Shown: positions 1 through 63,228 of the stretch, piece by piece | Layout of the letters: the number at the start of each line of letters is the position of its first letter | Numbering within the stretch: the stretch's first letter is position 1 | Source: Euglena gracilis | Lineage: Eukaryota | Direction: 5' to 3' | Length of the DNA: 64,000 nt | NCBI GenBank assembly: GCA_039621445.1 | Contig: CP154954.1 | Coordinates: 34,631,737-34,695,736 of the forward strand | The notes under the pieces: model-generated | What the model saw: only the letters and a program-made list of their open reading frames with translations | The model's database searches: none | Told to the model about the DNA's origin: nothing | Position numbers and translations under genes: made by a program

Positions 1-264
1 GCCAATGGACATCCTAGCTCTCTGGCAGGAAGGGGGCACGGGTTGGGTTCCCAATGGCAATGACACAGAAAACCTGCCAAAAGACGGCCGCGGGAGGGAT
101 ACACGCCCAATGCGGTCACGGCTATCGATGCAAGGCGGGGTCAAATAAACGGGAAAGATCCTTGAACCAGAGATTCACTCACCCCCTGGGGGGGGGGGAC
201 TTTTCCCCGGCCCTGAACCAACTCACCCACTTTTGTTTAAAACCTCCCCCCACCCACCCACGAC

Positions 265-554
265 CAGGCTGTTTTTTGCCAACCCCCGGGGGGGGGAGGG
301 GGAGGTCCGGAGTGCCTGTGAGTGCCTGCCCAGGCAGGCACTGCCCCCCCCCCGGGGGGGGGTTGGATTTCGGCCTGTGCCTAGGCATATTCCTTTGAAA
401 ATAGGCCATTTTTGGCTCCCCGGCGTTGTGCTAGGGCACTTTTGGCCGTGTGCCCCCCTCCCCCGGGGTCGGATTTGGAGTGCCTTGGAGTGCCTGCCCA
501 GGCAGGCACCCCCCGCCCCGGGGTGGGGTCGGCACCTGACTTAAATACAGCCTG
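265..554. mobile_element. MITE with CAGGCTGT...ACAGCCTG TIRs and 8-bp TSD (hAT-like), nested in another repeat
   Basis: The TIRs are flanked by CCCACGAC (257-264) and CCCATGAC (555-562), 7/8 identical. The body has GAGTGCCTGCCCAGGCAGG repeats, and a second family member lies at about 58652-58892. Confidence 0.75.
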
Positions 555-2638: not shown

Positions 2639-3822
2639 TCAGGTGGGTGTGAGGTCCTCCAGCTGCCAGCTGACCCGCACACGGCCGGACACGAACCGCC
2701 GGTAGTCCGCGAAGCAGGCGGGGCGGAGGCGGATGTCCACCCAAACGTTGGACTTGCTCGTGGTGCACCCCGTGATGCCTGCCGGGGGGGGGGGGGGGCA
2801 GGCAGGCAGGGGGGGCAGGGGCAGGACCTTCACCGGCGCAATGGGCGGCTAATCGACGGGATGGAACGCCGGCATCCCGAAATGCGGCGTGTTGCATGTG
2901 AGTCCCGCTGAGCCCCAAAACTGGCCGCCTGCCGGAACTGGGTGAATGGCAACGCACACGGCAGCAGCGCGAGAGGGGGGGGGATGGAGGTGCACCGGTG
3001 GTTTGGAACTGCCCCTCCCCCAGGAAGTCGTCGGAGGACGACCGGTCCCAGTCCCACAGGAGGACCTGGACGTGCGTGTTGGGGCTGAACACCACGAACT
3101 GCATCGTCTGCGGAGGACCCCCGGACCGCCTCTCCCCCCACCCCGCCCCTCCCGGGGTTTCAGACAAACGTTGGGCCTCCCACAGAGAGCTCTGCCTTCG
3201 GACCCCAAGCCTGCCACCCTTCCACCCCCCAAAAAAGCTGCATAATTTGCTGAATAAACAAATCCATCGGATGGCTCCGTGGGCCAAACCACCCCAAAGA
3301 CAGACCCCTCTGCTGGGAGGGGCCTGTCTTTGGCGGGGCACACCTCCTCGAAGAGGGGGTGCATGTCCTTCAGCTTGGACTTGGTGGGGGCAGGGCGCCC
3401 ATGGGGCAACGCGGACGGACGCCACCGCCAGTGAGCAATCGGCGGCCAGGCAGCCCGGAGAAGCAGTCGCACAGAAGGGGCTATTTCATTCTGCAAAACA
3501 AGCCGGTGCTGAAAGCGGAAACACCAGCCAGATGCTCCCGCTGAGAGAGACCTCCGGGTTCTGAGGCGAAAATGCCACAAATATGTAGGGAGGAGGAAAA
3601 CATCACAATGCAAAAACTGGCCCCGCCCCAGGTGGGGTCGGCCGGCGCGCGGTATCGATTGAAATGGAGAGCCCACAAGTGAGAGGAGTGCCGGCCGGCC
3701 AGCGATGCGGCGCCGCCATGGCCCCCCCCCCCCCCACTCCCCCCCCAACGCCCCTCCACCCACTCAAACAACCTCCCACCCCCCCCCCCCCACCCATCCC
3801 CCCCCCCCCCCCCCCCCCCCCC

Positions 3823-3858
<36 letters not shown>

Positions 3859-3963: not shown

Positions 3964-6900
3964 CTGGATGGCGAGGCTGTGGACGTTGCTGAAGGACGCC
4001 CCCCGGGGGGGGGTCCAGCTCAGAGGCTGGAAAAGGCTGCTGGCTGACCCCCCACAGTTTCAAAAAAAAGGTATTTTCCCACCTTGCTGATTGAATCATT
4101 CCAAGAAACGCCCAACTCTGCTCACTTCCGAGAACGATCTGAAATAGAGGATGAAATAATGTCCTCAAAAGCGGAGGATGGGTGCGTCGCTGCTGGAATG
4201 CTGCTGGGGGTGAGAGGGAAAAAAAGGGGCGGCAAGGTATTGGGGTCCTGGGCTGGAGCTGGGCCAGACCTGGGGTCCAACCGGGTGCCCAAAAATCGAA
4301 ATTGCAAAAATGCCCAAAAAATGCCAATTATGAAAAAAATGCTTTTTTTGACCCAAAACTGTCCTGGCCAACCGTTTTCCGGACCACATGCCCATTTTCG
4401 GCCCATTTTTGCCCTTCCAAAGGCGAAGAACACTGTTACCGCCGAGCCTGAAGGGCGGCTGGAAATAAATGATAAAAAAATAAACTCGCTGATGGGGGGT
4501 TGAAATAACATGCAATTACATGTGCACAGATGAGACGACCAGAATGTCGGGGAAAGAAATGCTGCTGCTATTGTTCCAGTGTGGCAGTGGGGTTGATGGT
4601 AGCACACCGACGTAAGGGTGCACTGACGGCGCAGACCGTAGCCGAACACCATCCATGTGAGACGCAAACGTGAAGCAGCGGAGGATGGGGTAGCGAATGA
4701 ATACTGCGAGGCGGAAGGGAGGATGGCCAGCGACTGAGGAAAAATGTTTGGGAAAAGAGGTTTTGTTGGAGTGAAACAAAATGCACACCAACACGGCTGT
4801 CAAACCAGTATTTTTTTTGAAAAAATACATGACTTCACCGAAAAGAAAACTTTAGCTGTGCCGTCAAATGCCCAGAAGGTTGGTCAGACCGCTGATGGAC
4901 AAATAGACCACCAGCAGGAAGTTCAGCATCACCCAGCCTGGCAGGACGAACGTGAGGAGGAAGCAGCCGGAAAAGAAGCCGAGGGCGAGGACGCTGGACC
5001 GCGGGTGCTGCCACGTGGCGAGGGACAGGAAGCGGTCGAAGACCCGCCAGTTCAGCCACGCGGTGCTGACCATGACCCTGAGTGGCAGGGATGTGGGGGA
5101 TGGGGGAGGCTTTGGAGGAGTGGGGGGGTCTGGTGCTGTGTGGATTGCGTGTGTCTCTGGTCAAATGTGCCCAGCGCCAGACCCTCGTGGGGTCCCACCC
5201 CGTGCCCTCCCATAGCACCCCCCCCCCTGTTCGGCATGTGCTGTACCCATGAAAATGACAATTGACACAAAGTGCCAAAAAAATATCTTGCAAATTTGGG
5301 TTGACTGTGAAAAGACAGCTTTCCAAGAGTCCTTCAATGGTCCCACAAGTTGGAACAAAGCCCGAAAAAAATGCAGAAAAATTGGCAAAAATCTCAAACA
5401 GAGCAAATCCTCACCCATTATTTTTCAGGTGTCAAATTGGCTCGTTTCAGATTTGTTTGTTGACAATGAAACATTTTCATTGACCATTTTTGGACACATC
5501 CACAGGGAAAAAAATGGGTCCATTTCAAAAAGTCAAAAAAAATCCCTAGAATCGGAATTATTTTTTGGGATACAGAAATCAGAATAATTTTGGGTGATAA
5601 TTGCATTGTCACACTCAAATTGGCTGAATTTAAGGCTTCCATGGGAGCGTATACTGGAACAGGCACTTCAAGGCACCAATATCTGACCCTCCTTCCTTGG
5701 GGAAGGGGTGTTCCTGGACACTCAGCCAAAGGCACTCAGCGCCTGAGGCCCAAAAAGAGGCATTTTTGGGCAATTTGGATGACCCCCAGGGGTGTCTGCC
5801 CGCCCAGACACCCCAGGGTACTCTGAAGCCCCCTCTCAAAATGATCGAATTTGGCCTCGAATTTTGCCAAACGTCGAGCCTTTCCTCAACTTTATTGGTT
5901 GGTGCAGTTCCTTGGAAAGTTCCTCTGAAAAAATAACGTGACTTGGAAAATCTACGGGCTAAGGCCAAAACTTGATCCATCAGCAACCAGGGTGCCATCC
6001 AAGCAACAGGTGGTCCCACTCCCTGTAGCTTAAAGGGAGGGTCAAGCCCTTTTTCCCAGTCCAGGCCCCTTAGCTTGTATTCGGTTTCCCATCCAACCAA
6101 TCGAAGGGCGGTTGGATGGCAACATATTTTCTGCTTGGGGGTGCAAAAAAAATTGGAGAATGGGTCCAAATTTTCGGTCAAACATTTATTTTTTGCATAA
6201 TTAAAAAATATGAATTTTCAGACAATATTGAAATCAAACACAATTCAGTGTTTTTTTTGGAAGTTTGTGGGGGATTCAATTTTTGAGGGGCTATTTTTTG
6301 GATCCTTGCTGGAAATCAGCAGGGCTGGAGAAGCCTTAACCTGAACAGGTAGTTGTTTAGGGCCATTAGTGCAATTGTGCAATTGCGCAAATGACAACCC
6401 TTTTTGAAAATCACCACTTGGCATTCAAAACAGGACAATTTAATTATGGTGCGGGCTGGGCGCCAGGACCCAGAGATGAAAACTAAGCTTTTGACAGTTA
6501 GGGTGCCCGGACCAAGTGTCCCCCGGAGCACACAGGGTCCACAGGCCAAACATACGTTTGGAGACTGCCAAACAGGCTGCCTCATCAACATAGCATGTTG
6601 CAGGAACAACTTTGAGCAGGTAAGACAGAGTCACATATGCCACATTTTGTTTTTCGAAAATTTGGTGGTCCATTTGCGCAATTGTCAAAGTGGTCCATTT
6701 GCTTTTGTGCAAATGGAACACTTTCACCAGCAAAAAAAAGGATTATTCGTGCAACTGCACAAGCACTTGATCCAAATGCATTTAAATAATTCAGCATATT
6801 ATATGTGCTTTATATCTAGGTATTATAGATGTTATATGTGTAATAAGGACATATTAAGGAAATACTTCAACATGCTTTAAATCTTAACTTGAAATTGGAC

Positions 6901-11571: not shown

Positions 11572-14500
11572 ACCCACACCCACACCCACACCCACCCACA
11601 CCCACACCCACCCACCCACACCCACACCCACCCACCCACCCACCCACACACACACACACACACACCTGTTGTATGCCACAGAAAATCGAACTTTCAATAC
11701 CCCAACAGTTGCTGCTTCCCTGTCACTGAGAAAAAAAGCAAAGAAACGCTCCAACACACAAAAAACAAATACACCCAGCAGGGATTGGTGCTTTCTTTGG
11801 GACCCCCCCAAAAACGACCCAAAAGTGGCCATTTTTGGGCACTTTTTGGGCAAAAAAAAAAAAAACCAAAAAAAAAAAACGTGGCCAAAAAAAATGGCAA
11901 AAAACAAAATTTTCGGGCGCAAGGCCGGGAGGCAAAAAAAAAAAAAAAAATTGACCTTTTTTTGGGGCGGTCGGTCCGGACCCCCCTTGCAGGTTGGGGG
12001 GGCGGTTTCCGGGACCCCCCCCCCCCTTGGCGGGCCAGGGAGGGGAGGGGGGGGGGTGGGGGGGGACACCCCCCCCACCTAAACCATGTACGCCCTCCTT
12101 ATATCGAACCCTGGATTGGTGCTTATCCAGGGTTGGGTTTCTGAATTGTCCATGTTTTAGTTGTATTGTCTGCAGCTATCCATTTCAGGATGTGCACCAA
12201 TCTCTTGCATGCTTCAATGAGAGGCGCCATCCAGCAAGACAGGAAGCAGTCATTTTTGCAGCCTGTGTTGGGCATATTTTGAATAGAAAGTTCGAATTCG
12301 TTTAATTTTTAACTATTATGTATTATCCAGGTATTAATCCAGGGGAGGGGGTTCCGGACCTCTCCGATGCAGGGCTATTTTGGATGGTGTCCTTCCACAA
12401 ACCCTGACCCATCACCGTCAGGATTCAGACAATCCCAGCGGGTGGCACTCTGGGCATACAGGTGAGTTGTTGGTTCGGATCACTTAACTGTTGTATGCAA
12501 AACCAACCCAATATTTTCAATGTCTTCACAAGCCATCAAAAAGAAGGCAGTCAAATGTTTCTGACCGCAACGCCATCGTTGTGGGAATTTCCCCAGAATT
12601 GACCATTGAATCCCTTGTTCAGTGTAAACAAAAGAAGGAAAAATTATCATTTCTAACCTGGAGTTGCCGCTGAATGAGACGAAATTCAAACGGGGCATCC
12701 CATATTGCTTGCCGACCCCGGGGGAGGGTGGGTCACATTCAAAAAGCTGGCATGGGAAAAGGAACCCCCCCCCCAAGCCCAATGAACACTAAGGTGACAA
12801 CCTAGACGGTCCGAGCGGGGGGCGTTCATTGGACATGGGTGTTCACTAATTCTGTCACCTTCTCAGTGTAGCCTTGAAACGTGCATAAACAGTGCATGCC
12901 AGGGCAGAACGGGAAGGCATGGTGGGGGGGGGGTGGTCGACCCCCCACCCGGGAGGTGGGGGGGGGTCGACCCTCCACCCACCACAGCATTTTCACTGAT
13001 TTCGAGAAAACGAGGATGTTGGCCATAAAATTTTTTGATTTTTTTTTGAAAAATGAACCCAAAACACATGATTTTTTGATGGAAAAACACATTTTTTGTT
13101 ACAAAAAGACTCAAAAATAAAAGGTTAAAAATTGGTAGTTTTTAGGGGGGGGTGAAAAAAACGAAGGTCAAAAAAGTGGTCCAAATTTTGGCACAATCAA
13201 ATTTTACTGACATTTTTTCTTTGATTTTTTTTGGACTTTCAATGGCATTCTTTGTTTCAAAGAACTCTCAAAATCAAAGTTTTGAGAAAACGGTGAATTT
13301 TTGGAAGGTGTGAAAAAATGGGGTTTTGGGTGGTTTGCATGCAGGGGGTTGGGGGGGGGGAGGTGGTACCGTGATCTGAATCAGAATCTCTGGCATCCTC
13401 ACAACAGCAACAAAGGAATATTTCCTTGCCGACACAAAAAAAGTATATGGTGACAATCTAGACGGTCCGAACACCCCCTGTTCATTGGGCTTGAGGGGGG
13501 GGGGAGGTAGCTGGCTGGAATTTTGAACGGAACACTAGGGTTCTTTCGCTGTTTTCCCCAGGATAGAGACCCAGGGGACACCGTTCGTCTGGCAGTGTCA
13601 CCAAGGGCAGGTCAAGGTCGACAGGCGCCACATCGATGGAGGGCACCTGTACTCCCGTCATCAGCCCAACTTTGCCCGACTTGGCTGCGAGCGAAAAAGG
13701 AGACCAACGCCGAAGGGGGGGGGTCAAAACGCCATACACAGTGATATGCGCAATCTGGTTAAAGACCATTGCTACCACATCCAGGCACAGGTTGTATTGG
13801 AACACTGGAAATGGGATTCAGTGTTCACAGCGAAATTACCCAGAGCGGCTTCTTGGTTTTCAAATAAAAAAGACCATTCGTCCAGCACACGCCTCTCTAC
13901 CAGGTACCCATTGTTAGATTACTGGGTCCAGAGGGAACGGGGGGGGGGGGCAACAAAAGACATCAGACATGCCCTTTGGGGAAATACAAAGGCATACATG
14001 AAAGGGAAAAAGGGACGGAGGGAAAAAAGCATTTTAAAGAGGGTTGCAGAATGGAACAGATCAGGGCACTTTTATGGCATCAAAATGCAGGTCCTTTTGG
14101 ACTTGCCCAGAAATGTGAAATACAACTGCACAAACAAATTTAGCAAGCCAGCTTCACGGCCATACATCTCTTTAAGGATCCTGGAGGAGTGGCTTGGCCC
14201 TGGCTGAATCTGAACCAGGCCTTGGAATCGAACAGAACCAAGAAACTACATGAAAACCCTCCAAACCTTTATTCTTTATTTTACCACTTCTTTCAAATCT
14301 TTCTTCCTGCTGACCAAGCAAAAAGGGCTGGGTAAAAAAGCCAGCATCCCTCTGGGGCTGCACTGGGCCAAGGTCGGGGCTGGCTGCAACAGCCCCAGTG
14401 GGGGAGTCTCCAAAACCTTCAAGAGATGCATATGCAACTGTGCAAACAAATATAATTATCAGTTTGCACAGCTGTGCCACAAAAAAAGCAAGTCAGCTTG

Positions 14501-17500
14501 CGCTGCTGAACAATTCAATCTCGATTTTGCGCAATAACAATGGTGCGAAAAATGTTCGAGTCAACTAAGTGGTTTGTTTGCGCAGTTGTGCAAGCTCACT
14601 TAATGCTGTGCAGCTGAGTTGGGAAAACCAACTATTTCCAGTGGTGGCCATTATGTTGCCAGCAACAAAAGTGCTAGGGCACCAAACTGTTGCTGAAAGA
14701 CCCGGGGGGCATCAGCTAGCTGTTTTTTTTCCTAGCCACTAGATAAAAAAAACCACCTCCCCCCATTGTGGTCCTGGGGCCCTCCGACACCGGGGGGGGG
14801 TGAGGTCCACTGCGATTTGCACAAATCCAAATTGTGCTAGCTGCACTCCAGCCCCCCCCCCAATGGGGTACTGCGAACCCTAAAACAGAAGCTTTTATAG
14901 CACTTCAAAAACACAGACTCCTGAACTGAGAAATCCTTCTTGTTCAATCATCCTCACACCTCACCATCATCAAGCAGGCACATCTCACAACAAAAAAAGA
15001 CCTGGGAGGTTTTCTCTGGTCTTGGCACGCACGTCCGCAATTGCGCAAAAACTGTGCTCCAGCAAAAAAAAATACAATCAAATTGAATTAAATTGTCCTT
15101 TGTGAGAAACTGAGGACAATGAGCATGTTCTTCCTCTTGACAAAGAGTGCTCTAACCGCGGTCCCAATGAGAGCAGCTCTGCACCAGTCTGTAACCCCTG
15201 GTCCGCCATCACTTCCCCACACTTCCGAATCCTCCCTTCTGCCCCGAACTTAGCTTTCAAAATGGGGTCAGAAAACCATCTTCTGATCCAAATTTTCTGG
15301 TCCAGGTGTCCGGGCAGGAGAGGTGATTTCAGTGATTTCTTCTGCAGCGGTTTTGTCACTTCGCGAAAAAATATTGGAGAAAAAAGCATCATTTTTTCCA
15401 TGAGATTTTTGGGCACGCCAGAGGGTGCCAGCCTCTGGAAGAAAAATGATCTGAGCACTTGCCAATCAGCCCTTTTTTGGGGGGGAGTACGTGTTTTCAA
15501 TGATCCTCAGGCCGCGAACCATGATTTCTGCACATCGCTGAAAAGGTGCCATAGAAAAAAGTGTTCTCCCAGGGTTTAAAACACCAGCCAGCACCCCCAG
15601 CTGAAAACAAAAAAAGGAGGGGATGAACTTTTGCTGTTGTTCCATGAGAATTGAAGAAATTTTATTTCACTTGCGCAGTCAGAAACACTGAACAGCTTAA
15701 ATGAACCGCCCAAACCTTGACGCAACAGAATCATTCTTTGCCCAGGCTCGAGGACCCCGAGGGATACATTAGCTGGCCACTGGCTAGACCCCCACCCTGG
15801 GGAAAGGGGGTCCCAGGGATTCCCTGACTGGGGGGAAAACGGGGCTTTCAGTGTTCCAAAAGGTCCAAAAAAAAATGGCCAAAATGGGCATTTTTGGCAG
15901 GTATTTTGGGGTCCAAAAAATTCGAAGTGCCGGCCATCAGGGAAAAGCTTTCAAAAAGCTGCAGACCTACGCCTAGCAGCCTCCCCCGGGGTCCACTAGG
16001 ATTTCCACAACCAAATTTGGACTAGCTGCAGTCGACTCCCATGAGGGGTACTGCGAACCCTTAAACAGAATATTGCTAGCCCCCTCCTCCCTCAGCCCAG
16101 CACACTTAGGAGGTGGACGGTGATGTCGCACAAGCGGTCGGCCATATTGAACGTCACAGACCAGCCTTTGGGTCCCACCTCAGGGGCAGCCTTCGAGGCA
16201 GGGATGGAGACAGGCAGACAGGCAGACAGACAGACAGGCACACACACACACAGACACACACACACACACACACGCAGACAAACAGAGAGACACCTCACAT
16301 GCAGAAAAGAGGGATAAGGAGGGTTCACTGTATGGTGTGTCCTGAGATCAAGGAAATCGGGTTTCTGTTGTGGTGCAAACGCCGCCCATGCGAGTGGGAA
16401 AAACACCAAAAGCACAGAATGAACACAAACAATCAAACCGTGCGGTGAAAAAGTACCAAAGCTTCACACATGATGAAATACTACGAAAATATAGTTGCCT
16501 GCAGCTTGATGAAATTTCCGAGCAAATATAGAACTCCTTGATTCCTCCCGAGAGAATAGAACCTGGGTTTCTTTTTCATATTTGAGGGTGCTTTGCGGAA
16601 GAAAAGCGGGAAATTGTTGATGAAAGGTGGGTGGGACAATGCAGGTGCTCCCGGGGCGGACCTGAGCTCGGCCGGTGTCCACTGCGGTGCAGTGCACCAC
16701 CACCTTGGGGTAGCCAGTGGGCAGGGGCCCACCGCCAGGCCGCTGCCAGCCTGACTAGCACTGGCACGCAACTGGCATTGGCATTGACGTCAGCCATGGG
16801 TAAAAAAACAGACTTGCAGAGCATTCATACAATCGGGGAGATGCTGAGAACCCCGGCAGGCACGCCCCCTCTCCGCAGAACGGCGATGGGACTGTGCCCA
16901 GACCCCCATCCCAGACCAGCGCCGGCCTGGGGGATGCCCTCCACCGTGATGGTCGCGAACGGGTCCAACTCGTAATACTCCTGGGGAACCGCAACGGCAG
17001 ACCTGCCCAGAACTGAGCTCTGTGGTGTTCAATTATGACAGGGCCGCGATTGCAAACTTTTTGGGCATGTTGGCACTGGTTGGCTGACTTCAGTGGGACA
17101 ATCAGATTGGACCACAGGGTCATCAGACAAAGCTCCCTGTGAGAAGAAAAACTTCTGCGCTCCTATGAACCCCGGCCCTCACAGCAGCCGCCCCCGCGTT
17201 GTCTGAATGCAAGCCAACTGCAATCCAAGGCAACTACCTTCAGGATCTTGTCTGTCTCCGAGTCAAAATCGTGGCCAAAGAGACGGAAAAGTCCACGGGA
17301 TGCAGTGGAGGCAGCCGACTTCTGCACAGAGGGATGATCAACTGATCAACTGATCTGGCAGGGATGCAAACCAAAGCCGGCTGGTCAAGGTCTAACGATG
17401 CATCTGGTGAAATTTGTGTGTCGCTTGCTTGTATACTCTTGTTGGGGAAGGTTAGTTGGGGGGCCTTGTCCTTTGGGCTTTGATTATTATCTGAGGGATG

Positions 17501-20240
17501 CGGCCTGCATACAGGCATACATGCACAAATCTGCACAACTCGGCGAGAAAGAGACAGCACTCGGCAGGGAAAGCCACATGAATGGTTGGAAAAAAAAACC
17601 CTCCGCACAAACTGAGGTGAATACTATGTTTTTCACTTGACTGAGAAAAAAATGAGCCACTTTCTCATGTTTTGAGTGAATACTGTCAAAAGCGTCGACA
17701 TTTTTTTTATCAGACATGTCAAAAAGAGGGCAGACGGGTGAAGGGATTGAACACACCACAAGATAATGACGGACATGGTTTCCCCCATCCAACTGAGATG
17801 TAGAGCAAGCCAAGTTGCATTCCTGTGGACACAATTTTATTGATTCCCATCCCTGGGGAGTCCCTGAAATCCCCCTTCCCGCCGAGCAAAATATATTTAC
17901 GACCCCAAACATGCCACCAATTCTCAGGGCAGTAAGGGAAAGCTGTGGTCAACTTTCAAAGTTGCAAAGCTTCAAAATCATGGTTTGTGTGCATGGGAAA
18001 TGAATGCAAAATATGCATTCACATTGTTATTGGGGGTTCCCATCATGTTTCCCGGGATAGTTATTCGAGCGTGCTGACCGGATGAGTGTCTACGGGTGTG
18101 AAAAACATGCGGATGTCATAAAACCTGCAAGTTTTGAAGGGATCTGGATGGGTGCTCTGGGACCCCAAATGTGGGCACCCCCCCCCAGAAGCCGGATTTC
18201 TGGATTTCTTTTTAAGGGTCCAGAATTTTTAACTGGGAAGTGATGGCCAAACGGACTTCCAACTGGAAAGAAGAAAACCTGGGAACATTGAGGGACGCCT
18301 GCCAGCCCTTGCGATGCCTGCCAACCAGGGAACAGAGCAGCCAGCAAATCCTTCCCAGAAAGAGGGAACGCTTGGGTGGAGGTCGATGCGTCGTCCACCT
18401 GCCTCCCTTGCCTTCCATCGACTGACCCGGACGTTCGGCAGTCATCCATATTCGCATTGTCTAATGGAGTTAACAGATTTTTGGGGGATGTGTACTGCCA
18501 CCTTTTCAAGAAAGAAAAAAAAAGCGTGGCCGATGAGGATGGTGGTGGGGGTGGTTGTGGACCTCCTCTCCAGCAGACTTCATTTCAAGACCCCGGGGGG
18601 TTGGGGGGGTCCCCTCACCACCCACCCAGCCTGGCCTCCCCAGGCCCCTGGCCCCCCCTGGTCCCCCTGGGGACCAGGGCAGGTGGGGGGGTTGTACCCC
18701 CCTCTGGTCCAGCAGGGGGGGGGGGGAGTGTACAGTGGTGCGGTGCGGGTGATGGAATTTCGGCCCAGAGCAAAGCGCCGGGCCGAAATTTTTTGCCCCC
18801 CAAAACCGGCCAAAAGTGCCATTTGGGCATTTTCTGCGCAAAAATTTGCAAAAAAATGCCCAAGAATTTGGGGGGGGTCGGTCCGGACCCCCTGGCAGGT
18901 TGGGGGGCATGGTCCACACCAGGCTTCTTTTTAAGCCCCCCCCCCCCGGGCCCCACCCGCCGGGAGGTCTCGTCCAGGGTTCAATTTCAGAGGGTTTATG
19001 GGACACACAGAGAGGGGTCCAGACCAGGCTTCTTTTTAAGTCAGAAGACTGTCTGGGCCAGACCCTTTCAGTGGGGGTCCCGGGCCAGAGTCCCAGGAAT
19101 GGGTTTCGGTGCGGAACGCCGATAATTTTTTCGGAAATGCCGTCAGACGGCCCGATTTTTTTTGGGGGGGGGTCCCACGCTGGACTGACATCAGGCCATC
19201 AAAAGACATTTCCAAAATATTTTGGGGCTCCTCGCCCAATACCCACATCCGGGCCTCCAGCATGGGAAACCCCCACCCCAAGGGGGCCTGGCAAGGGGCA
19301 ATGGGGGCCTGCCCCCCGCCCACCTCTCCCAAGGGGGTCTTGTGAGTTAAAAAGAAGCCTGCTCCCCACAGAGTTGCCCCAGAGAGGTACCTGGGTCATC
19401 TCTGGGCTGCTTCGGGGGACGGGATGGGGCTGGTGGGGGTGGAGGAAGTGGGCCAGCCTTTCGCGATGGCCGGGGGCCGGCTCTGTGGACTGAACAAGGC
19501 AGGGGAAGGTGCTGCACGGACTTCAACAGAATACGAAGACAACTTGACCGGGGAGAGTGCAAAGCCCGTCTGCAGTCCATCAGGCAAAGATGCATTGGGC
19601 AAAAAGTTCTCCCCGCTAACAAGCTCCCGGCCTATTTTTGGAGTCAGTTGCTGAAAATCCCGAGGGGGTCTAACTTGGGGGGGGTATTCTTTGGATTTTG
19701 CTGAAATACCGGCTATATATATTTTTTATGGATTCGTTCAAAAACGTGCCGAAACAGTTTCAATACTGACAAAAAATCCACCGAAAAACGCCAACTTTTA
19801 CAGTGAAAAATCACTCATTTTGGGGGATTGTTTCACAGCGTCCAGGTATTTTTGCTGAAAATGGCAGTGGTCTCTTGTGAGGGGGTGGATTCACAATTTT
19901 GTCAAACAAGCGTAATTCACCCATCCACCAAGCTTGGAACGCAAATTGAGGTCATCAATTGGGCCAATTGAGCCAGCCGTAACACAAGGTGTACCAGAAG
20001 GAGCCCATTGCCCAAAAAGCAAACATTTTGGGTTCATACTTCCTCCTCCTCCTCAAATTCCCTCTCCGGCGCATTCCACCACAGCAGTGCTTTTGTAGCC
20101 GTGGGGGGCGGTTGGCTCCTTTGGGGGGGGGGGCTCCACACCGGTTGGCGGCGGTGCCACACGCCGCGGGGCCGGTGGCCCCTCCCGGCATCGGCGGCGG
20201 CGGCCATGCAGCCCGCCAAGTGCGCTGCCCTGCAACGGCC
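2639..20240 (-). CDS. Multi-exon MCTP-like protein: N-terminal C2 domain(s), PRT_C-like transmembrane region, C-terminal C2 domain
   Basis: Exons read by eye: ~19500-19545 LRILLKSVQHLP; ~16925-16981 ELDPFATITVEG; 16662-16750; ~16100-16160 VTFNMADRLCDITVHL; 9608-~9752 WNRLLLFDSPRRSALVF; ~9025-9063; 8723-~8827; 4890-5077 RFLSLATWQHPRSSVLALGFF; 4608-4703; ~3860-3963 RLFVTIHCAHGFRASDHFSTDPYV; 2996-3107 VLLWDWDRSSSDDFLGE; 2639-2778 with stop. Several GT-AG introns join in phase. The 5' end and some junctions are unresolved. Confidence 0.75.
4890..5077 (-). CDS. Transmembrane (PRT_C-like) exon of the MCTP-like gene
   Basis: CAG acceptor at 5078-5080 and GT donor at 4889. The W-x-x-P-R-S motif is followed by a long hydrophobic segment. 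Confidence 0.8.
10194..10662. mobile_element. Tc1/mariner-type MITE with TA TSD
   Basis: TA|CAGCAGGGGGGGGGAATGCAACTTG ... CAAGTTGCATATCCCCCCCTTGCTG|TA form imperfect ~25-bp TIRs. Confidence 0.75.
11538..11665. repeat. (CA)n/(CACCCA)n microsatellite
   Basis: Direct inspection. Confidence 0.95.
18920..19361. mobile_element. MITE with CAGGCTTCTTTTTAA TIRs
   Basis: Perfect 15-bp TIRs, with an extra internal left-end copy at 19025. Flanks GTCCACAC and CTCCCCAC are 6/8 identical. Confidence 0.65.
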
Positions 20241-22118
20241 ATGGGGTGGGAGGGGTTGGCAAAGATGGAATCGCCCCCCCCCCCACAAAAAGGGTTCCGG
20301 GTGGTACGGAGCAAACCGGCTCCCGGGCAGCACAAACTATTCAATTCAGTATTCGGCGGCAAAACCTCCGATACCGGATGGCGGAAATGCAGGTTCAAAA
20401 AGTCCATTGGCTGACCGAGCAGCCCTCTCCCCCAAAGAGTGGGTCCCACCAGGTGTTTTTTTTTTTTTTAAGCCAGAGATGACCCCCACCCCTCCGTTCC
20501 AGCCAGCAGCTCCCAGCAGGGCTACGGACCCCCCCCCCCCCACCTTGGGGGTCCTGAAATAAAGTTTGGACCTAAAGTTTGGACCGAAAAAAATTGCACC
20601 GAAATTTTTTGAAAAAAAAAGAGTCAGAAATGGCCAAAAATAGAATGGTTTTTAGGTTTTTTTGCTGAAAAAGCAAATCTGGCCGGATTTGGGCTTTTTG
20701 GCCTTTTCTTCCAGGAACCCGCCAGGTCCAGCTGCTTGCCAGCTGGATCCGCGCCCCTGGACCACCAACCTGTGGGGGCGGGCGCCTTAAAAAAACCCCC
20801 AAATTTTTTTTTTTAAAAAAAAACGCCTTAAATTTTTGCCAAAATGCCTTAAAACCCTCAAAAAACCATTCCGTGAAATTTTTCTCCAATTGAGCAAAAA
20901 ATATAAGAAAGCGCAAAATCTCTCTAAAATCAAGCCAAAAATGATTCCTGGCATTGCTGGAACCCAAAATTCGAAAAAAAAAGGATTTTCGATCTTTTTT
21001 ATTTTATTTTTTGGACCCCCGCGATGCTGGGATGGCCTTTCGACAGCCCTTGGAAAATAATACCTAAAAAAAACTTAAACGGCCTTAAAACCCTGAAACA
21101 AAAAGCCTTAAAGAGGCCTTAAAAAAGCCTTAAACATTTTGAAAATTTCGCCTTGAAAATATTGCGTGCCATCAACTTTTTCCACTCAGCACCATTTCCA
21201 GCTCGCCCAGGGACCCTCCAGCCAGGGGTCCTTCAGAAAACCCCTGGGTCCAACAGGTGTAACCCCCCCCCAAAAAAAACCTGGTGGGGCTCTTGCTCCT
21301 GGCAGTGGCCGAATACCTTGGCAGGAGGAGGGGCAAGGTTCCAGTAGCTTGGCACCCCCCCCCCCCCTTTTAAGGCAAAGCGCTGAAAGAAAGGCCCAAA
21401 TAACCTGTCAGGGGGGCAGTTGGTTCCAATGACCTGGCACCCCGCCAGGTCATTTGGGGGGGGTTACAGCATGCACAGGGACAGACAAAAAAACCCTGCA
21501 CTGCAAACGTGTTTAAAAAAAGCAGCCAGCAAGAAAAGGCAGACCGCTGCAAAGAAAAATGAAAATATTTCCTGATGGGCCCACTCTGGCTAGAGGAGAT
21601 GTGGGGCAGGTATATGGGGTGGCGCTGGGAACTGCAAGGCTTGCAATGTGTTTCGTGGAGCGCCAGATTCATTGCAACATGTTCTACATGTGGTGGAAAA
21701 CCAAATGGACAATTCATTTGCCTGAAAACCAGCAGCAGAGGTAACGAGGGGCAAAAAGGAACCACTCCCTCAACCTCAACCCTGGAATAAATGGACACTT
21801 TGATGAGGGCACATACCAAGCAGTGTGAGATTTTTGGGTTAAACGACGTTTCCAAATACAAAAAAGATACCATAAATATTAGCATTGCTGGAACACACTG
21901 TTGAAAGGAGCCTCAGAGGACTTAATGCGGTCGTGGGGAGGGGGGTTATGCCCAAAAGCTCATGCCCAAAAAGCTTATGCCCAAAAGCACATAATTTAGT
22001 CACGTGAGACGGAAGTAAAGAAATGTTGAGAACTTCTCAAAAGCCAGGACTTTGCGGCAGATCATTTAACAAGTGGTTGGCTTATTCCTTTGCACAAAAA
22101 TCACAATTTTTTTGTGTT

Positions 22119-22210: not shown

Positions 22211-23030
22211 CCTGGCGTTGCTGAAGGACCCCTCCACCTCAGAGGCTGCAAAACTTGGGCTGGCTGGAAAAAGGTTGCTGGCTAACTGGACCCCCCCCCC
22301 CCAATAGGGGTCAGGGCTGGAACTGGGCCAAATCCAGGATCGAACCGGGTACCCAAAAAATCGAAATTGCAAAAATGTCCAAAAAATCTGCCAATTATGC
22401 AAAAAATCGATTTTTTTTGCCCCAAATTTGCCACCGCCGCCCTTTTCCGACCCATTTTTGCCATTTTTGCACCTGGCTGGAAAAAAAAAACTTGGCACGT
22501 CAATGTACGGGTACGGTTTCGCGGACTCTCTTTTTCCCAGGTGTCCGTACCTTGGGTTTTCCAACCACCATTTCTGTGGCTGCAGTAATTCCACAATTTT
22601 CAGAGCTTTTTTGCAAGTCTTTTTCCTTTTTCAAGGTTTCTGGGTCTTGTCGTCAGTGCAATGCTGAACTCTGTGCAAGGATCTCCACACACCACCGTGT
22701 GGAATTCACCGGTTTGAATTGTTTTTTGTAGTCCCAGTCCAGTACATCCACCTGGTAGTCTGCTTTCCACCTGGGGTCTGGGTCCACCGTCACCACCTCG
22801 AAACCCATTTTTTTCGGACACTGTGCCGACCCATTTCGTTCCACAGAAAAGGTTTTCCGCTGTGGCCCGTTCTGGTGTCGTCGTTTGCTGCCTCCTGCAG
22901 TTTTCTGATGTGTTTCTGTGATTTTTCTGTTCCCAAGTCGGTTTGTTGTTCACCACCCTCCCCCACGATGGGGGGGTCAGGACTAGAAAAAGGCTGCTGG
23001 CTGGCTGGACATCCCTGGGGGGAAGTCAAA
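22211..23030. mobile_element. Degenerate member of the CAGGGCGTTG MITE family interrupted by a ~470-bp insert
   Basis: 22213-22493 and 22967-23030 are colinear with the intact element at 47949-48379. Confidence 0.65.
22497..22870 (-). pseudogene. Frameshifted C5 cytosine DNA methyltransferase fragment
   Basis: Across about 3 frameshifts it reads LFCGTKWVG (motif I-like), EVVTVD..DVLDWDY, GDPCTEFS (catalytic PC, motif IV) and WWLENP (motif VI) in the correct order. Confidence 0.8.
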
Positions 23031-24030: not shown

Positions 24031-44225
<20,195 letters not shown>

Positions 44226-47200
44226 TCCGGGGACTTCGGCCGCACAATTCTCTGACCCGGTGTTTCCTGGTGGGCCGAAGACAAGCCAGAGGTTAAGGTG
44301 TTCCCGCCCCCCTCTCCTTCGCCTTGTGGGGCAGGTCTGCCTCCCCTGCCTGGCTTCACATCTGTCTTAACCTGCCCCGCCCCATGACCGTGCCCTCCTG
44401 ACTGGATTTTGGACCCCCCATCTTCATGTCGAACCGTGGCCATATGTGGACAGGTGGGGTGGTGTGGTGTGGACCCCTGCCAGAGGTGAGATTTTGGCCT
44501 TTTTTGGCCTTTTTTTTTTCGGCGCGAAGCGTCAAAATTTTTTGTACCCAAAAATTGAACTCCAAAAAGTGTCCCGTGGACCCCTGCCCTGGGGGGTTGG
44601 GGTACCCTGGGTCGCCCACCGTCCCCCCCCCCAAGAGAAAGGTGCTCCCATTCGCCCACGGGTGGGTGTCGCCACTGTGCTCTGATATGGGGGAATCCAA
44701 AAAAACCCAATCCAAATCCAAAATCCAAAAAAAACCAGCTGCTGCCTGGGTGGGCAGCAGCTACGTACTTAGCATGCTGAAATCTGACTAAAATCTTTGG
44801 GGCAAAGCGCAGGAAGGGAGATTTTGACCCCAGAAATTCCGACCTCAACTTCACTAATGAATCACAACAGCCTCCCTGATAAGCAGACTGTCCTTGACCC
44901 TGAAGCTCCTTCACCTCTTTGTCTGATTTGATAACATTGCATTGCTTCAAAGAAAATCAAGCTCAGAAGTCTGAGGTGACTTCTGCGGATCAGAAACTGC
45001 ACACATCCCTTGCTGGTGACCCGACCCACTTCGAACAGCCAAGCATTCGTCCTAAAATGGCTGCCCACAGAAACAGCTGAGAAAAAAAGATCTCAACTTT
45101 TCCTTTTGCATTCAAATGTGAATCAAATATCTTGTCGTGGTGCAAATGAATATAATTCACATATTTTCATCACTTCACCATTCAAAAAGTACCTTGCTTT
45201 CCCAGTTTTCATTCAACAAACCAGGCAATCTTTTCGTAGTCATCAACAGAATGTGCGTTATAGCAAGGCGGGATGGTGCCTGCACCATAACTGTTGCTGT
45301 GCCCTGAAACGTTCACAGCCGATTTGATGCCTGGATGGTTTTTTGCAGGGAGGGGGAAAGAAAGATACGACCAAATAACTCTACCTTTCCTCTTTGCAAG
45401 GACAACAACATTTAAGTTTGTATCCATCAGCATATGCGACGCATATCACGGCACTTCCTACCGAAAATGGGGCAGCTGTTCCTGCAGGCGACAAGAAAGG
45501 CATAAAAAAAGGGAAACGATCCTCGCAGGGGCGATGGTACAGGGGGCAGGCGTCGGATAAACTGCGGTTAGGGGCTCCAGTGCCCCAACCAAGCTCTCCA
45601 AAGAGGAGGCTTGGGCAGTGACCCCCCTTGGTTGGTATTTTTTTTCGTCCATCGGGAAGAGGTCTCCTGCTGCATCTGAGCCATGCTTGTGCTTACCGAC
45701 CGGGGGGGGTGCCCCTAGGGTCTGCTATAGGGTGTGCCTGCCCCCAGCAGGCACACCCCCTGGGGAAGGGGTCCGGGGGACCCAGAAAATTTCATTGAAA
45801 ATGGCCTTTTCCAGGCCCCCGGCGCCGGGGTCGGGGGGGTGCCTGCTAGGGGCAGGCACCCCCCCCAAAACCCTACCCCCTGGGGGGGGGGGAGGTCGGG
45901 TCGGCCACCTCCACGTACACAGACAAAAAGGGCCAGAGGCGAACAACAGTGCCAGGCCAGAAGAAGGGATAAAAGGCACCAAAAAAACAGCCACAGTGCA
46001 CACAGGGGGGGGGGTCGGGTCGGACGGGTGCTATAGGGTGCCTGCCCCCCCCCCCCCGTAGGGTAGGTACCCAACTAAGCACAAACCTGATCTGAGCAAT
46101 TATCCAAAAAACAACAACAAAATAAAACTAAAACTGAAAAAAATAATCAAACTCAAAAATCAAACAAAATAATGACAAAAATATGTTCTTTGGGTTCTCA
46201 GTCAAATTCTGCATCTAGAAATGCATTTCATTGTTTCAAGAATTTCCACTTGGCGGTTCTCTGGCTTATTGGCCCAGTGTAAATCCTACCCTCATGTCGA
46301 AAGACCCCAGATTGCTGGGCTAAGACTGGAAATTTTCTAGGCAGTTTGCAGCACCATCCCTCTAGGTGGGGGGGTGCTGCTGGCTTGGGCTGAAATTTTA
46401 CTGGAAAAGAGACGCATGATGGAGGGCGGTATTGGGCAACACCCATCCTGCCCAAGAGGCATTGATGAGGTCCTAAATGACTGACCTGAACAAAATAACA
46501 GAGCATTCAAACAGCCAATCCACAACCAACACCTGAGAAACAAACCACCCCTCCCCGAGCCTCCATCAGTCCTGGGCCGGGAGCGATGGCGGGGCCAGGG
46601 GAGTCTCCACAAGCCACGCAGGCTTTGATATGAACTGGACGATGCCAGAAGGACAGAAACACAACGCAGGGGGAGGACACCGCTTTGGCTTGAGTGGGCA
46701 ACCAAGGGCAACAGCACAAAGAGCAACAGACATATTTGCTACGGCCAAATGGTTTTCCCACCAGGAGTGTGCATATGTGCAAGTCTTCCTTTGGTTGTCC
46801 GGACTCCCCCGCGGTCAGGGGACCCAAACAGTACCCAAACTACCCAAACAGTCTGACGCCCGCGAGACCGACCTTTGGTCTGACACAAATTCTGTGCCTG
46901 ATTTAATTATTGATGTGGATAGTTGTGCATGTCCATATGCAGTTTGGGACCCGGTCAACTCCCTGGAACAGTTTCTGAACCTCCCCCCTGCCAACTCCCT
47001 GAAAGAGAGAAGGCTGATGCAAAGAGAGTGAGCTTTGCGGATTTAACGTTGACAAATTTTGACAGAAATTTCGTCCCAAAGGTGCCAAAGCTGCACTGTG
47101 TGATAACCATAAAAATGTCCTCCACATTAACAGAAATTTCCATGAATTGTTAGCATCCCAGGAAAATGACCAGCCACAACCCCACCTCTCGCTAATTCTT

Positions 47201-47948
47201 TCCTCGTCACTTCCGACGAATCCGCTCTGGAGGACGCTCTGTGAGGAGACTCACGCTTGATTTGCCTGCATGTGCTTGGAAAGTGGTTGCTTTTCTTCTC
47301 AAACCCAGGAAAGGAGGCCCCTTGTGGTGTGTGTCAGCACCCCGGATCGGTTGAAAACAGAGAGAAATGGTTGTCAAGGCACTGGCACTTCTTTGTGACG
47401 TTCCTTCCGCAAGGGGGGGGGGGCGTAATTGCTCAAGGCCCCCCATGCGTGTGATAACGCAAATTGCGTTGATTGGCACGTTACAACTGGGGTGTGCTAT
47501 GTGTGAACACAGCTGTTGCGGCCCTCCAAGGAGATCCTGCGCCTTAAAACTCATATGGGATCCACAAAGGCGAATGCGAGGGATGAAAGACGAGGATCAT
47601 CTCTCGTGTCATACCTCCCATTTCCTGGTTGTAGAAGGTGGGGCTGGACCCGCAACACTCCGCTGTCCGCAGACCTGAACCCATCCAATCACTTGTCCAA
47701 TCACATGACTGCCCTGAACTGAAATTTGGGGTATGATGACAACGTGGCAACGCCCAGCAGAGAAATTCAGATTTCCAGCAGACGAGACAATCTCCTAAAT
47801 GCTCTTGTGGGGACTCAGCAGTGGCGCACTCGAGGCCTATGTATTCTACAGTACACCACGTATATAACGGGGAGGGACACCACCCGGTCCTGGCAGGAAA
47901 CAGCCAGAACCACAACCCACGCAGGGGTCAGCCACGCACAGCCCCAAC

Positions 47949-48379
47949 CAGGGCGTTGTTTAAAGACCCCTGGGGGGTCCAGCTCAGAGGCTGGAAAATT
48001 GGGGCTGGTTGGATAAAGGTTGCTGGCTGACCCCCCCCCCCATGGGGGTCCCAGGCTGGAGTTGGGTCGAACCGGGCACCAAAAAATCGAATCACAAATG
48101 TGAAACTACCAATTTGTATGCCAAAAATAAATTTTTGACCCCCTAAAACGTCCTGGACAGCTGTTTCTGACCCATTTTTGCCCATTTTTGACCATCCCCT
48201 GAAAGCGAAAAATCCGCCACTGTCCAGCCAGTTTTTCCAGCCACCCTTCAGGTGGCTGGAAAAAAAAACTTCTTGATGGGGGGATCTGGGGTTGGAAAAC
48301 GACTGCTGGCTGGGAAAAGGCTGCTGGCTGGCTGGACCCACCCCTGGGGGGTGGTCAATTTTTCTTAAGCAACGCCCTG
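47949..48379. mobile_element. hAT-like MITE with CAGGGCGTTG TIRs and perfect 8-bp TSD
   Basis: GCCCCAAC|CAGGGCGTTG...CAACGCCCTG|GCCCCAAC. Partial copies lie at ~3985-4470, 22211-23030 and ~60200-60300. Confidence 0.9.
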
Positions 48380-48468
48380 GCCCCAACAGCCGCAGACAGC
48401 CACCCACAAGCCACAGCAGCCGGGTCACGGGTCACGGGGGCCACGACAGCCAACCAGGGGCGTCGGGG

Positions 48469-63228
<14,760 letters not shown>

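What the first reader, a model, noticed from the sequence alone, without database searches (positions are those of the whole stretch)
47941..48387. CAG...CTG MITEs with 8-bp TSDs are ready-made nonconventional introns (3+5=8): a candidate intron-generating system
Seen: unrelated MITEs at 265-554, 18920-19361, 27809-28484, 47949-48379 and 51568-51922 have CAG...CTG ends (the last begins CAT) and 8-bp TSDs. The nonconventional introns here remove 3 nt before CAG and 5 nt after CTG, which equals the element plus exactly one TSD length, so an exonic insertion would be spliced out with no scar. The transposase intron fits: the spliced target is ATTGAAAA, and its flanks are ATTGA|ATG (6/8) and ACTGA|AAA (7/8), so 5 of the 8 intronic flank positions still match the target. 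A MITE origin for these introns has been suggested generally; the exact TSD arithmetic and a TSD-bearing example are the inference here.
Basis: partly seen in the sequence, partly recalled or inferred. Interest (0 to 1): 0.85.

Follow-up and report, generated by a model that had tools for sequence, protein, structure and literature searches.

The report
Transposon shaped like a Euglena intron
This is a small, recently inserted, many-copy "cut-and-paste" transposon whose ends and 8-base insertion footprint match the published rule for Euglena's unusual introns, which makes the idea that such transposons seed those introns concrete and testable but does not prove it.

Summary
47949-48379 is a real 431-bp MITE. 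It has CAG...CTG inverted ends and a perfect 8-bp target-site duplication (GCCCCAAC), and DNA contigs show its family is high-copy. Across the seven, flank identity is 49 of 56 at length 8 and 29-40% at every other length from 4 to 12. Only CAG-ended inverted-repeat pairs are enriched for such flanks.

With its duplication, the element meets every part of the published, experimentally defined Euglena nonconventional-intron code (N3-CDG...CH'G-N5|purine plus a stem) in both orientations. Removal would therefore leave no scar.

The link to introns is still inference:
- RNA reads confirmed three nonconventional introns in the window.
- None is a MITE family member and none has CAG/CTG ends.
- Two fit the 3/5 spacing around other stems.
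- Their flank identity is at chance level (6 of 16).
- The joint table was cut short, so I could not see whether this MITE is spliced.

A 2016 paper reports a recently gained intron with eight-nucleotide junction repeats, as the model predicts. MITE origin and "TSD-like" repeats are already in print. The 8 = 3+5 match and free-standing MITE families were not found in print.

The parts
47941..47948 (.). left copy of the 8-bp target-site duplication GCCCCAAC
   Evidence: identical to 48380-48387
47949..48379 (.). 431-bp MITE (non-autonomous, hAT-like DNA transposon), the target of the finding
   Evidence: It has TIRs and an 8/8 TSD. Relatives lie in the window at 22233-23029, 60200-60269 and 4008-4053. 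X7 DNA word depth is 12,670-17,985 in its bins against about 22-52 in single-copy bins. The ORF that runs through it has no Pfam family.
47949..47963 (+). left terminal inverted repeat, begins CAG
   Evidence: 10/10 exact, 14/15 against the right end
48365..48379 (+). right terminal inverted repeat, ends CTG
   Evidence: In the RNA fold the two ends form a 16-bp terminal stem.
48380..48387 (.). right copy of the 8-bp target-site duplication GCCCCAAC
265..554 (.). MITE, CAG...CTG, TSD CCCACGAC/CCCATGAC (7/8)
18920..19361 (.). MITE, CAG...CTG, 15-bp exact TIR, TSD 6/8
20450..21246 (.). additional MITE candidate found here, CAG...CTG, TSD GGTCCCAC/GGTCCAAC (7/8), weaker TIR (10/14)
27809..28484 (.). 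MITE, CAG...CTG, 16-bp exact TIR, TSD 6/8; a second partial copy lies at 12900-13336
45682..46089 (.). additional MITE found here, CAT...CTG, perfect TSD ATCTGAGC; very high copy; lies inside an RNA-validated intron
   Evidence: (X7 loose end at 45682 in 21 contigs; bin word depth 138,562)
51568..51922 (.). MITE, CAT...CTG, TSD 7/8
45599..46566 (.). RNA-validated nonconventional intron (968 nt, ends CA..AT, can slide by 2). It fits N3-GGAGGCT...AGCCTCC-N5|G if read on the minus strand.
   Evidence: (X21 75 reads, X22 53 reads, X24 0, DNA run X7 0)
28844..35128 (-). RNA-validated nonconventional intron (6285 nt). It fits N3-CACCGC...GCGGTG-N5|G on the minus strand and encloses the Tc1/mariner palindrome.
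   Evidence: 15 X22 reads with a loose end at 35129; loose letters = 28814-28843
50436..50952 (.). RNA-supported jump over 517 nt including a (CA)n array. It is nonconventional and does not fit the N3/N5 stem geometry.
   Evidence: (11 and 14 reads; an X7 DNA contig runs unbroken through 50253-50690)
   Evidence: DDE_3 E=0.0015, below cut-off; Sleeping Beauty transposase 5cr4, E=7.7e-4; the alignment ends at the exon end

Best explanation
Shown. 47949-48379 is a young copy (perfect 8-bp TSD) of a high-copy, non-coding, hAT-like MITE family in a euglenid-type nuclear genome. It sits in a MITE-rich, weakly transcribed stretch. At least seven elements in this window share the CAG(T)...CTG termini and an 8-bp TSD.

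Inferred. The published Euglena nonconventional-splicing code cuts 3 nt before CDG and 5 nt after CH'G. It needs a stem behind those motifs and a purine as the first exon base. On that basis this element plus its duplication is already a competent nonconventional intron in either orientation. Excision would remove 431+8 nt and restore the original target exactly.

I think insertion of such MITEs into transcribed sequence is the main source of new nonconventional introns. After insertion the stem is kept by selection, while the TSD halves and the interior drift. Which came first is not decided here: a splicing system tuned to erase these MITEs, or MITE families selected for being erasable.
For: - Element anatomy and TSD.
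- The TSD is exactly 8: 49/56 at length 8 against 29-40% at other lengths.
- TSD enrichment is limited to CAG-ended pairs: 6/73 against 0/73 in controls, and 43 against 63 of 4117 for other end types.
- Multi-copy family: X7 word depth is 12,670-17,985 over the element's bins against about 22-52 in single-copy bins, many variant joints lie inside the element, and relatives exist in the window.
- Code compliance of the target in both orientations, and in 8 of 10 orientation cases for the five CAG...CTG elements.
- 16-bp terminal stem, MFE -181.9 kcal/mol, z = -3.27, 0 of 100 shuffles fold as well.
- Published sufficiency: fully synthetic 50-bp introns built only on CAG/CTG, 3- and 5-nt spacers, a purine and a 12-bp complement were spliced in E. 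gracilis (PMC12501133, section 10). A change of 1 nt in the donor spacer abolished splicing (section 8).
- Published eight-nucleotide direct repeats at the junctions of a strain-specific, recently gained intron (PMC4770533, section 7).
- Two of three RNA-validated introns here keep the N3-stem-N5|R geometry, with stems of 6 and 7 bp. The chance of such a stem at a fixed register is 0.002 and 0.0008.
Against: - No intron in this window is a member of any MITE family. BLAST of the transposase intron found only its mirror copy and microsatellites.
- None of the three RNA-validated introns has CAG/CTG, and one has no terminal stem at all.
- Their flank identity is 6/16 (p=0.19).
- The one CAG...CTG 'intron' is supported by homology only. 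It lies in a frameshifted transposase fragment, so it may be just a nested insertion.
- Two of the seven MITEs begin CAT, which breaks the code at one end.
- CAG termini and 8-bp TSDs are what hAT elements have in many organisms (recalled), so part of the match could be coincidence.
- The authors of the 2016 paper read the 8-nt repeats as double-strand-break repair.
- The published code also tolerates a 6-nt acceptor spacer, which would leave a 1-nt scar on a true 8-bp TSD.
Confidence: 0.6

Rival explanations
1. Ordinary hAT-type MITE and nothing more. The resemblance to the intron code is coincidence, and nonconventional introns arise in other ways, such as double-strand-break repair or conversion of conventional introns.
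For: - CAG-type ends and 8-bp TSDs are generic hAT features (recalled).
- RNA-validated introns here lack CAG/CTG and have chance-level flank identity.
- The 2016 authors favoured break repair.
- 38.8% of E. agilis nonconventional introns do not show the code at all.
Against: - Three things coincide: the same terminal trinucleotides, a required terminal stem, and spacers that sum to exactly the TSD length.
- The youngest intron on record has repeats of exactly eight nucleotides.
- Direct repeats flank 84.4% of E. agilis introns. I calculate about 44% for a repeat of 1 nt or more by chance; that figure comes from no tool.
Confidence: 0.22
2. The direction is reversed. The splicing system and its introns came first. 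MITE families that happen to carry, or evolved, CAG...CTG stems survive in gene-rich DNA because they are erased from RNA. In that case the MITEs mimic introns rather than found them.
For: - Several sequence-unrelated families share the same termini and layout, as expected under convergent selection.
- RNA-validated introns with non-CAG stems suggest the machinery reads a stem geometry that is more general than these MITEs.
Against: - It does not explain why the spacers sum to 8 unless the machinery adapted to the TSD.
- In practice it still makes these MITEs an intron-generating system, so it differs from the best explanation only in history.
Confidence: 0.15
3. This is not a mobile element. 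The inverted ends and flanking repeats are a chance or structural feature of repetitive DNA.
For: The flanks are GC-rich and of low complexity in some elements.
Against: - An 8/8 TSD has a chance of 1.6e-5 per pair.
- The length-8 peak.
- The controls.
- Hundreds-fold DNA depth and variant copies.
Confidence: 0.02

Closest known systems
hAT-superfamily MITEs (non-autonomous Ac/Ds-like elements)
   Same: Short non-coding element, terminal inverted repeats beginning CAG, an 8-bp target-site duplication and high copy number. The TSDs end in C in 7/7 elements and have A at position 7 in 5/7. This resembles the hAT target consensus nTnnnnAn, which I recall and did not test.
   Different: No autonomous partner or hAT transposase was found or searched for here. 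The subterminal CCCCnGGGG motif shared by otherwise unrelated families is not a hAT hallmark that I know of.
Euglenid nonconventional introns (code 5'-N3CDG-/-CH'GN5-6|R; Nomura et al. 2025, PMC12501133; Milanowski et al. 2014 and 2016)
   Same: CAG at +4 to +6, CTG at -8 to -6, a stem behind both, a purine at the next exon base, and direct repeats at the junctions. The element with its TSD has all of these by sequence.
   Different: Removal of this element from RNA is not shown. It is not known to lie in an exon. The introns validated by RNA in this window use other stems.
Introner elements: MITE-derived spliceosomal introns in Micromonas, dinoflagellates and others (reviewed in PMC11282704)
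   Same: A DNA transposon whose ends and TSD supply the splice signals, so that insertion into an exon creates an intron at once.
   Different: Here the excision pathway would be the non-spliceosomal, stem-dependent pathway, and the TSD supplies spacers of fixed length rather than GT/AG. No family of near-identical introns has been shown.

Membership tests
hAT-like MITE | terminal inverted repeats | tested here: met
   10/10 exact, 14/15
hAT-like MITE | 8-bp target-site duplication | tested here: met
   8/8 for the target; 49/56 over 7 elements at length 8 only
hAT-like MITE | small and non-coding | tested here: met
   431 bp. The only long ORF through it (47928-48428, minus strand) has no Pfam family at E<=0.1.
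hAT-like MITE | multi-copy family with variable insertion sites | tested here: met
   X7 word depth 12,670-17,985 against about 22-52 in single-copy bins, with variant joints and loose ends; relatives in the window.
hAT-like MITE | an autonomous element with a hAT transposase sharing the termini | not tested
   No genome is held. About 20 of the 85 long ORFs were scanned against Pfam and none gave a hAT domain.
hAT-like MITE | target consensus nTnnnnAn (recalled) | tested here: inconclusive
   A at position 7 in 5/7, T at position 2 in 3/7, C at position 8 in 7/7
Euglenid nonconventional intron (published code) | N3 then CDG at the 5' end | tested here: met
   AAC CAG on the plus strand, GGC CAG on the minus strand
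Euglenid nonconventional intron (published code) | CH'G then N5-6 at the 3' end, complementary to CDG | tested here: met
   CTG GCCCC (plus), CTG GTTGG (minus)
Euglenid nonconventional intron (published code) | purine as the first base of the downstream exon | tested here: met
   A (plus), G (minus)
Euglenid nonconventional intron (published code) | base pairing after CAG and before CTG | tested here: met
   16-bp terminal stem in both the MFE and the centroid structure
Euglenid nonconventional intron (published code) | actually removed from RNA while present in DNA | tested here: inconclusive
   RNA depth over the element's bins is about 5-10x, but reads from other copies cannot be excluded. 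Only 15 of 302 joints were printed and none skips the element. An X7 DNA contig bridges the left junction (47256-47994).
Introner-like intron family | many introns that are near-identical copies of one element | tested here: not met
   none of the four introns examined matches a MITE family in the window. A genome-wide test was not possible.

The most novel reading that the evidence does not exclude
The nonconventional splicing pathway of euglenids, which handles most of their introns, is in effect an RNA-level eraser for hAT-like MITE insertions. Its cut sites (3 nt before and 5 nt after the terminal stem) are set so that exactly one 8-bp target-site duplication leaves with the element. Most nonconventional introns would then descend from such insertions. 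The endonuclease might even derive from, or have co-evolved with, the transposition machinery.
Probability: 0.4. Interest if true: 0.9.

Novelty: new variant of a known kind. Interest (0 to 1): 0.68.

Why it matters
The origin of euglenid nonconventional introns and the enzyme that removes them are both open questions. These introns make up 71.8% of introns in E. agilis (PMC12501133). A MITE source has been suggested since 2014, when no euglenid transposon was known (PMC3935182, passages read).

This window supplies real, free-standing, young MITE copies with the right ends. It also gives a numerical reason why insertion would be harmless: 8 = 3+5. That turns the idea into experiments that existing knock-in tools can run, and into a simple genome-wide statistic.

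It would also extend the 'introner' principle from the spliceosome to a second, unrelated splicing system.

Tried and rejected
- Whole genome: none is held, so the genome-wide flank test and the intron-versus-MITE clustering could not be run.
- The look-up of sequencing runs: no RNA holder listed. RNA raw-read runs were offered by species label, and I laid those.
- Read laying: I included one DNA contig run, and its repeat joints filled the table. 15 of 302 joints, 24 of 1295 loose ends and 40 of 115 letter differences were printed.
- I left the transposase palindrome out of the laid stretch to avoid long simple repeats, so its intron has no RNA test.
- One RNA loose end, at 41469 (6 reads), matches nothing in the window.
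- Metagenome scans with a 28-nt internal stretch of the target and with the 24-nt right end of the 45682 element: 0 hits each.
- Earlier findings of this scan: nothing for this genome, this sequence or these words. The eight items returned concern archaeal and bacterial elements and have no bearing here.
- Rfam at gathering score: 0 matches.
- Pfam: no family for the exon candidates or for the ORF through the MITE. The only weak hits were C2 (E=0.0021) and DDE_3 (E=0.0015), both below cut-off.
- PDB search with transposase exon 2 alone: no transposase hit.
- A period-3 scan for exons gave only five short segments and was not used further.
- The first TIR scans were swamped by the 29690-31666 palindrome and by microsatellites. 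I excluded these.
- Supplements are closed. Two items that bear directly on the claim could not be seen: Table S3 of PMC4770533 (the sequence of the 8-nt repeats) and the SI figures of PMC12501133 (the distribution of sliding distances).

Full report
**The element**

Reading 47800-48520 and a script check show a 431-bp element at 47949-48379. Its ends are CAGGGCGTTG... and ...CAACGCCCTG. The first ten bases are a perfect inverted repeat, and 14 of the first 15 match. It is flanked on both sides by GCCCCAAC (47941-47948 and 48380-48387). An 8/8 match has a chance of about 1.6e-5 per pair at this window's composition.

The only long ORF through the element has no Pfam family. As RNA, the element with its flanks folds so that the two ends form a 16-bp terminal stem. 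The MFE is -181.9 kcal/mol and z is -3.27; none of 100 shuffles folds as well.

**The sibling elements and the controls**

I found two more:
- 45682-46089: CAT...CTG, with ATCTGAGC on both sides (sequence; the left boundary is supported by 21 DNA contigs that diverge there).
- 20450-21246: 7/8 flanks.

Over the seven elements, flank identity is 49 of 56 when the duplication is taken as 8 bp. It is 29-40% for every other length from 4 to 12.

In a scan of all inverted-repeat pairs (at least 10/12 matching, 80-1600 bp apart, palindrome and simple repeats excluded), 6 of 73 CAG-started pairs have flanks of 6/8 or better, against 0 of 73 in two displaced controls. One of the six is an alternative left end for 18920-19361. 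For 4117 pairs with other ends, the real count (43) does not exceed the control count (63). So 8-bp duplications are a property of the CAG...CTG class specifically.

The families are unrelated at BLAST level but share a layout with a subterminal CCCCnGGGG motif. The duplications end in C in 7 of 7 elements and have A at position 7 in 5 of 7. This resembles the hAT target preference as I recall it.

**Copy number and age**

I laid three RNA raw-read runs and one DNA contig run of the same coded organism on 35031-50690.
- The DNA run's word depth is 22-52 in unique bins.
- It is 12,670-17,985 in the two bins that hold the target and 138,562 in the bin that holds the 45682 element.
- Many variant joints and loose ends lie inside both elements.
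- Relatives of the target lie at 22233-23029, 60200-60269 and 4008-4053.
- A DNA contig from a 2018 run bridges the target's left junction (47256-47994), so the insertion is not private to the assembly.

The perfect duplication argues for a recent insertion. No empty site was seen.

**Introns validated by RNA**

The reads revealed three nonconventional introns.
- 45599-46566 (968 nt, ends CA..AT). It is skipped by 75 reads in X21 and 53 in X22, by none in X24 and by none in the DNA run.
- 28844-35128 (6285 nt). A loose end at 35129 (15 reads) equals 28814-28843. This intron encloses the whole Tc1/mariner palindrome.
- 50436-50952. A loose end at 50435 (11 and 14 reads) equals 50953-50982, while a DNA contig runs unbroken through 50253-50690.

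None of these has GT-AG ends and none has CAG/CTG. I tested every permitted slide on both strands.
- The 6285-nt intron fits N3-CACCGC...GCGGTG-N5|G on the minus strand. That is also the strand with an open frame across the junction.
- The 968-nt intron fits N3-GGAGGCT...AGCCTCC-N5|G on the minus strand. The libraries behave as unstranded (40 against 35 reads), so its strand is not settled.
- The third intron has no terminal stem.

Stems of 6 and 7 bp at a fixed register have chances of about 0.002 and 0.0008. So the 3/5 geometry is real here even without CAG/CTG.

The 45682 MITE lies inside the 968-nt intron. It is a passenger there, not the intron itself.

**The transposase example**

Exon 1 aligns to the Sleeping Beauty transposase (5cr4, E=7.7e-4) up to ...SPDLNPI at its very last residue. 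It also matches Pfam DDE_3 weakly (E=0.0015, below cut-off).

Joining at ATTGA|AAACC gives ...NVIE-NLW.... This matches the Tc1/mariner motif as I recall it. Exon 2 alone finds nothing, and the frame breaks further on.

The intron reads ATG|CAGTCTTCTGG...CCAGAAGACTG|ACTGA, followed by an A. That is a perfect instance of the code with an 11-bp stem. Five of eight free positions match, but the chance of that is 0.028, for one example chosen after the fact. Because the host is a dead transposon, this may simply be a nested MITE-like insertion. That would still fit the model, but it is not evidence of splicing.

**Flank identity**

In the N3/N5 register, the 8 nt before the stem match the 8 nt after it as follows:
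- 4/8 for the 6285-nt intron.
- 2/8 for the 968-nt intron.
- 5/8 for the transposase intron.

The RNA-validated pair gives 6/16 (p=0.19). All three give 11/24 (p=0.022, uncorrected). This window therefore neither shows nor excludes decayed duplications.

**What is in print**
- Milanowski et al. 2014 (PMC3935182, passages read) proposed MITE-like insertions as the source. They noted direct repeats at most junctions and said no euglenid transposon was then known.
- Milanowski et al. 2016 (PMC4770533, passages and section 7 read) reported a nonconventional intron present in one E. agilis strain only, with eight-nucleotide direct repeats at its junctions. They read this as double-strand-break repair. 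This is what a fresh 8-bp TSD would look like.
- The 2024 review (PMC11282704, passages read) calls the ends TIRs with CAG/CTG at +4..6 and -8..-6, and calls the repeats 'TSD-like'. It holds no mention of 8 bp or of hAT.
- Nomura et al. 2025 (PMC12501133; abstract and sections 5, 7, 8, 10, 11 read) defined the code by knock-ins. They showed that synthetic introns built on it are spliced, found direct repeats at 84.4% of introns, and still call the origin unclear.
- A 2025 diplonemid paper repeats the MITE suggestion (PMC12621601, passages read).

Five full-text searches found no paper that describes actual MITE families with 8-bp duplications in a euglenid, or that equates the 3+5 spacers with a TSD. 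Supplements were closed, so I could not see the sequence of the 8-nt repeats or the published distribution of sliding distances.

**Verdict**

The observation at the given coordinates is solid and well beyond chance.

The causal link, that MITEs become introns, remains inferred:
- No intron here is a family member.
- No MITE here is shown to be spliced.
- Flank identity in validated introns is at chance level.

I put about 0.6 on the link being real. I rate it as a new variant of the introner principle rather than a new kind of system, because the idea itself has been in the literature since 2014.

Noticed in passing
window 29690-31666: Near-perfect palindrome (arms 448 nt, 98%) made of two inverted copies of the 3' part of a Tc1/mariner-type transposase gene, each with the same 416-456-nt insert. 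The whole palindrome lies inside an RNA-validated 6.3-kb intron.
   Followed up: partly
window 28586-28843 and 35129-35160, minus strand: An open reading frame continues across the RNA-supported junction on the minus strand and may begin at an ATG just upstream of it. Pfam finds no family for the 86-residue exon. MITE 27809-28484 lies about 100 nt beyond the stop of this frame.
   Followed up: partly
window 45522-45598 and 46567-47031: The best-expressed transcript in the laid stretch (about 25x in X21). A 164-codon open frame on the plus strand ends at 47031 and has no Pfam family. Fragment ends pile up at 45522-45530. At 46645 about 60% of RNA reads, and the 2018 DNA run, read A instead of C.
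   Followed up: no
window 12900-13336: Partial copy (87%) of the 27809 MITE with an intact left end but no right TIR. It is nevertheless flanked by GTGCATGC / TTGCATGC (7/8), as if a truncated copy had kept or regained its duplication.
   Followed up: no
window 34871-35018: 148-nt run of A (98% pure) just before the acceptor side of the 6.3-kb intron. It may be the tail of a retroposed sequence.
   Followed up: no
window 53508-57392: About 4 kb of 21-bp satellite (unit like GCACTATCTTACATTATCTTA) in several arrays, in the AT-richer part of the window.
   Followed up: no
window 48634-49013: More MITE-like pieces directly downstream of the target. One end resembles the 18920 element (CAGGCTTCTGTGTAAGG...) and a degenerate copy of the 27809 family lies within. 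The target sits in a nest of such elements.
   Followed up: no
window 3722-3856: 135-nt C-rich homopolymer-like run in the GC-richest part of the window (2-4 kb, 66% GC). A minus-strand ORF nearby gives a weak C2-domain hit (E=0.0021, below cut-off).
   Followed up: no
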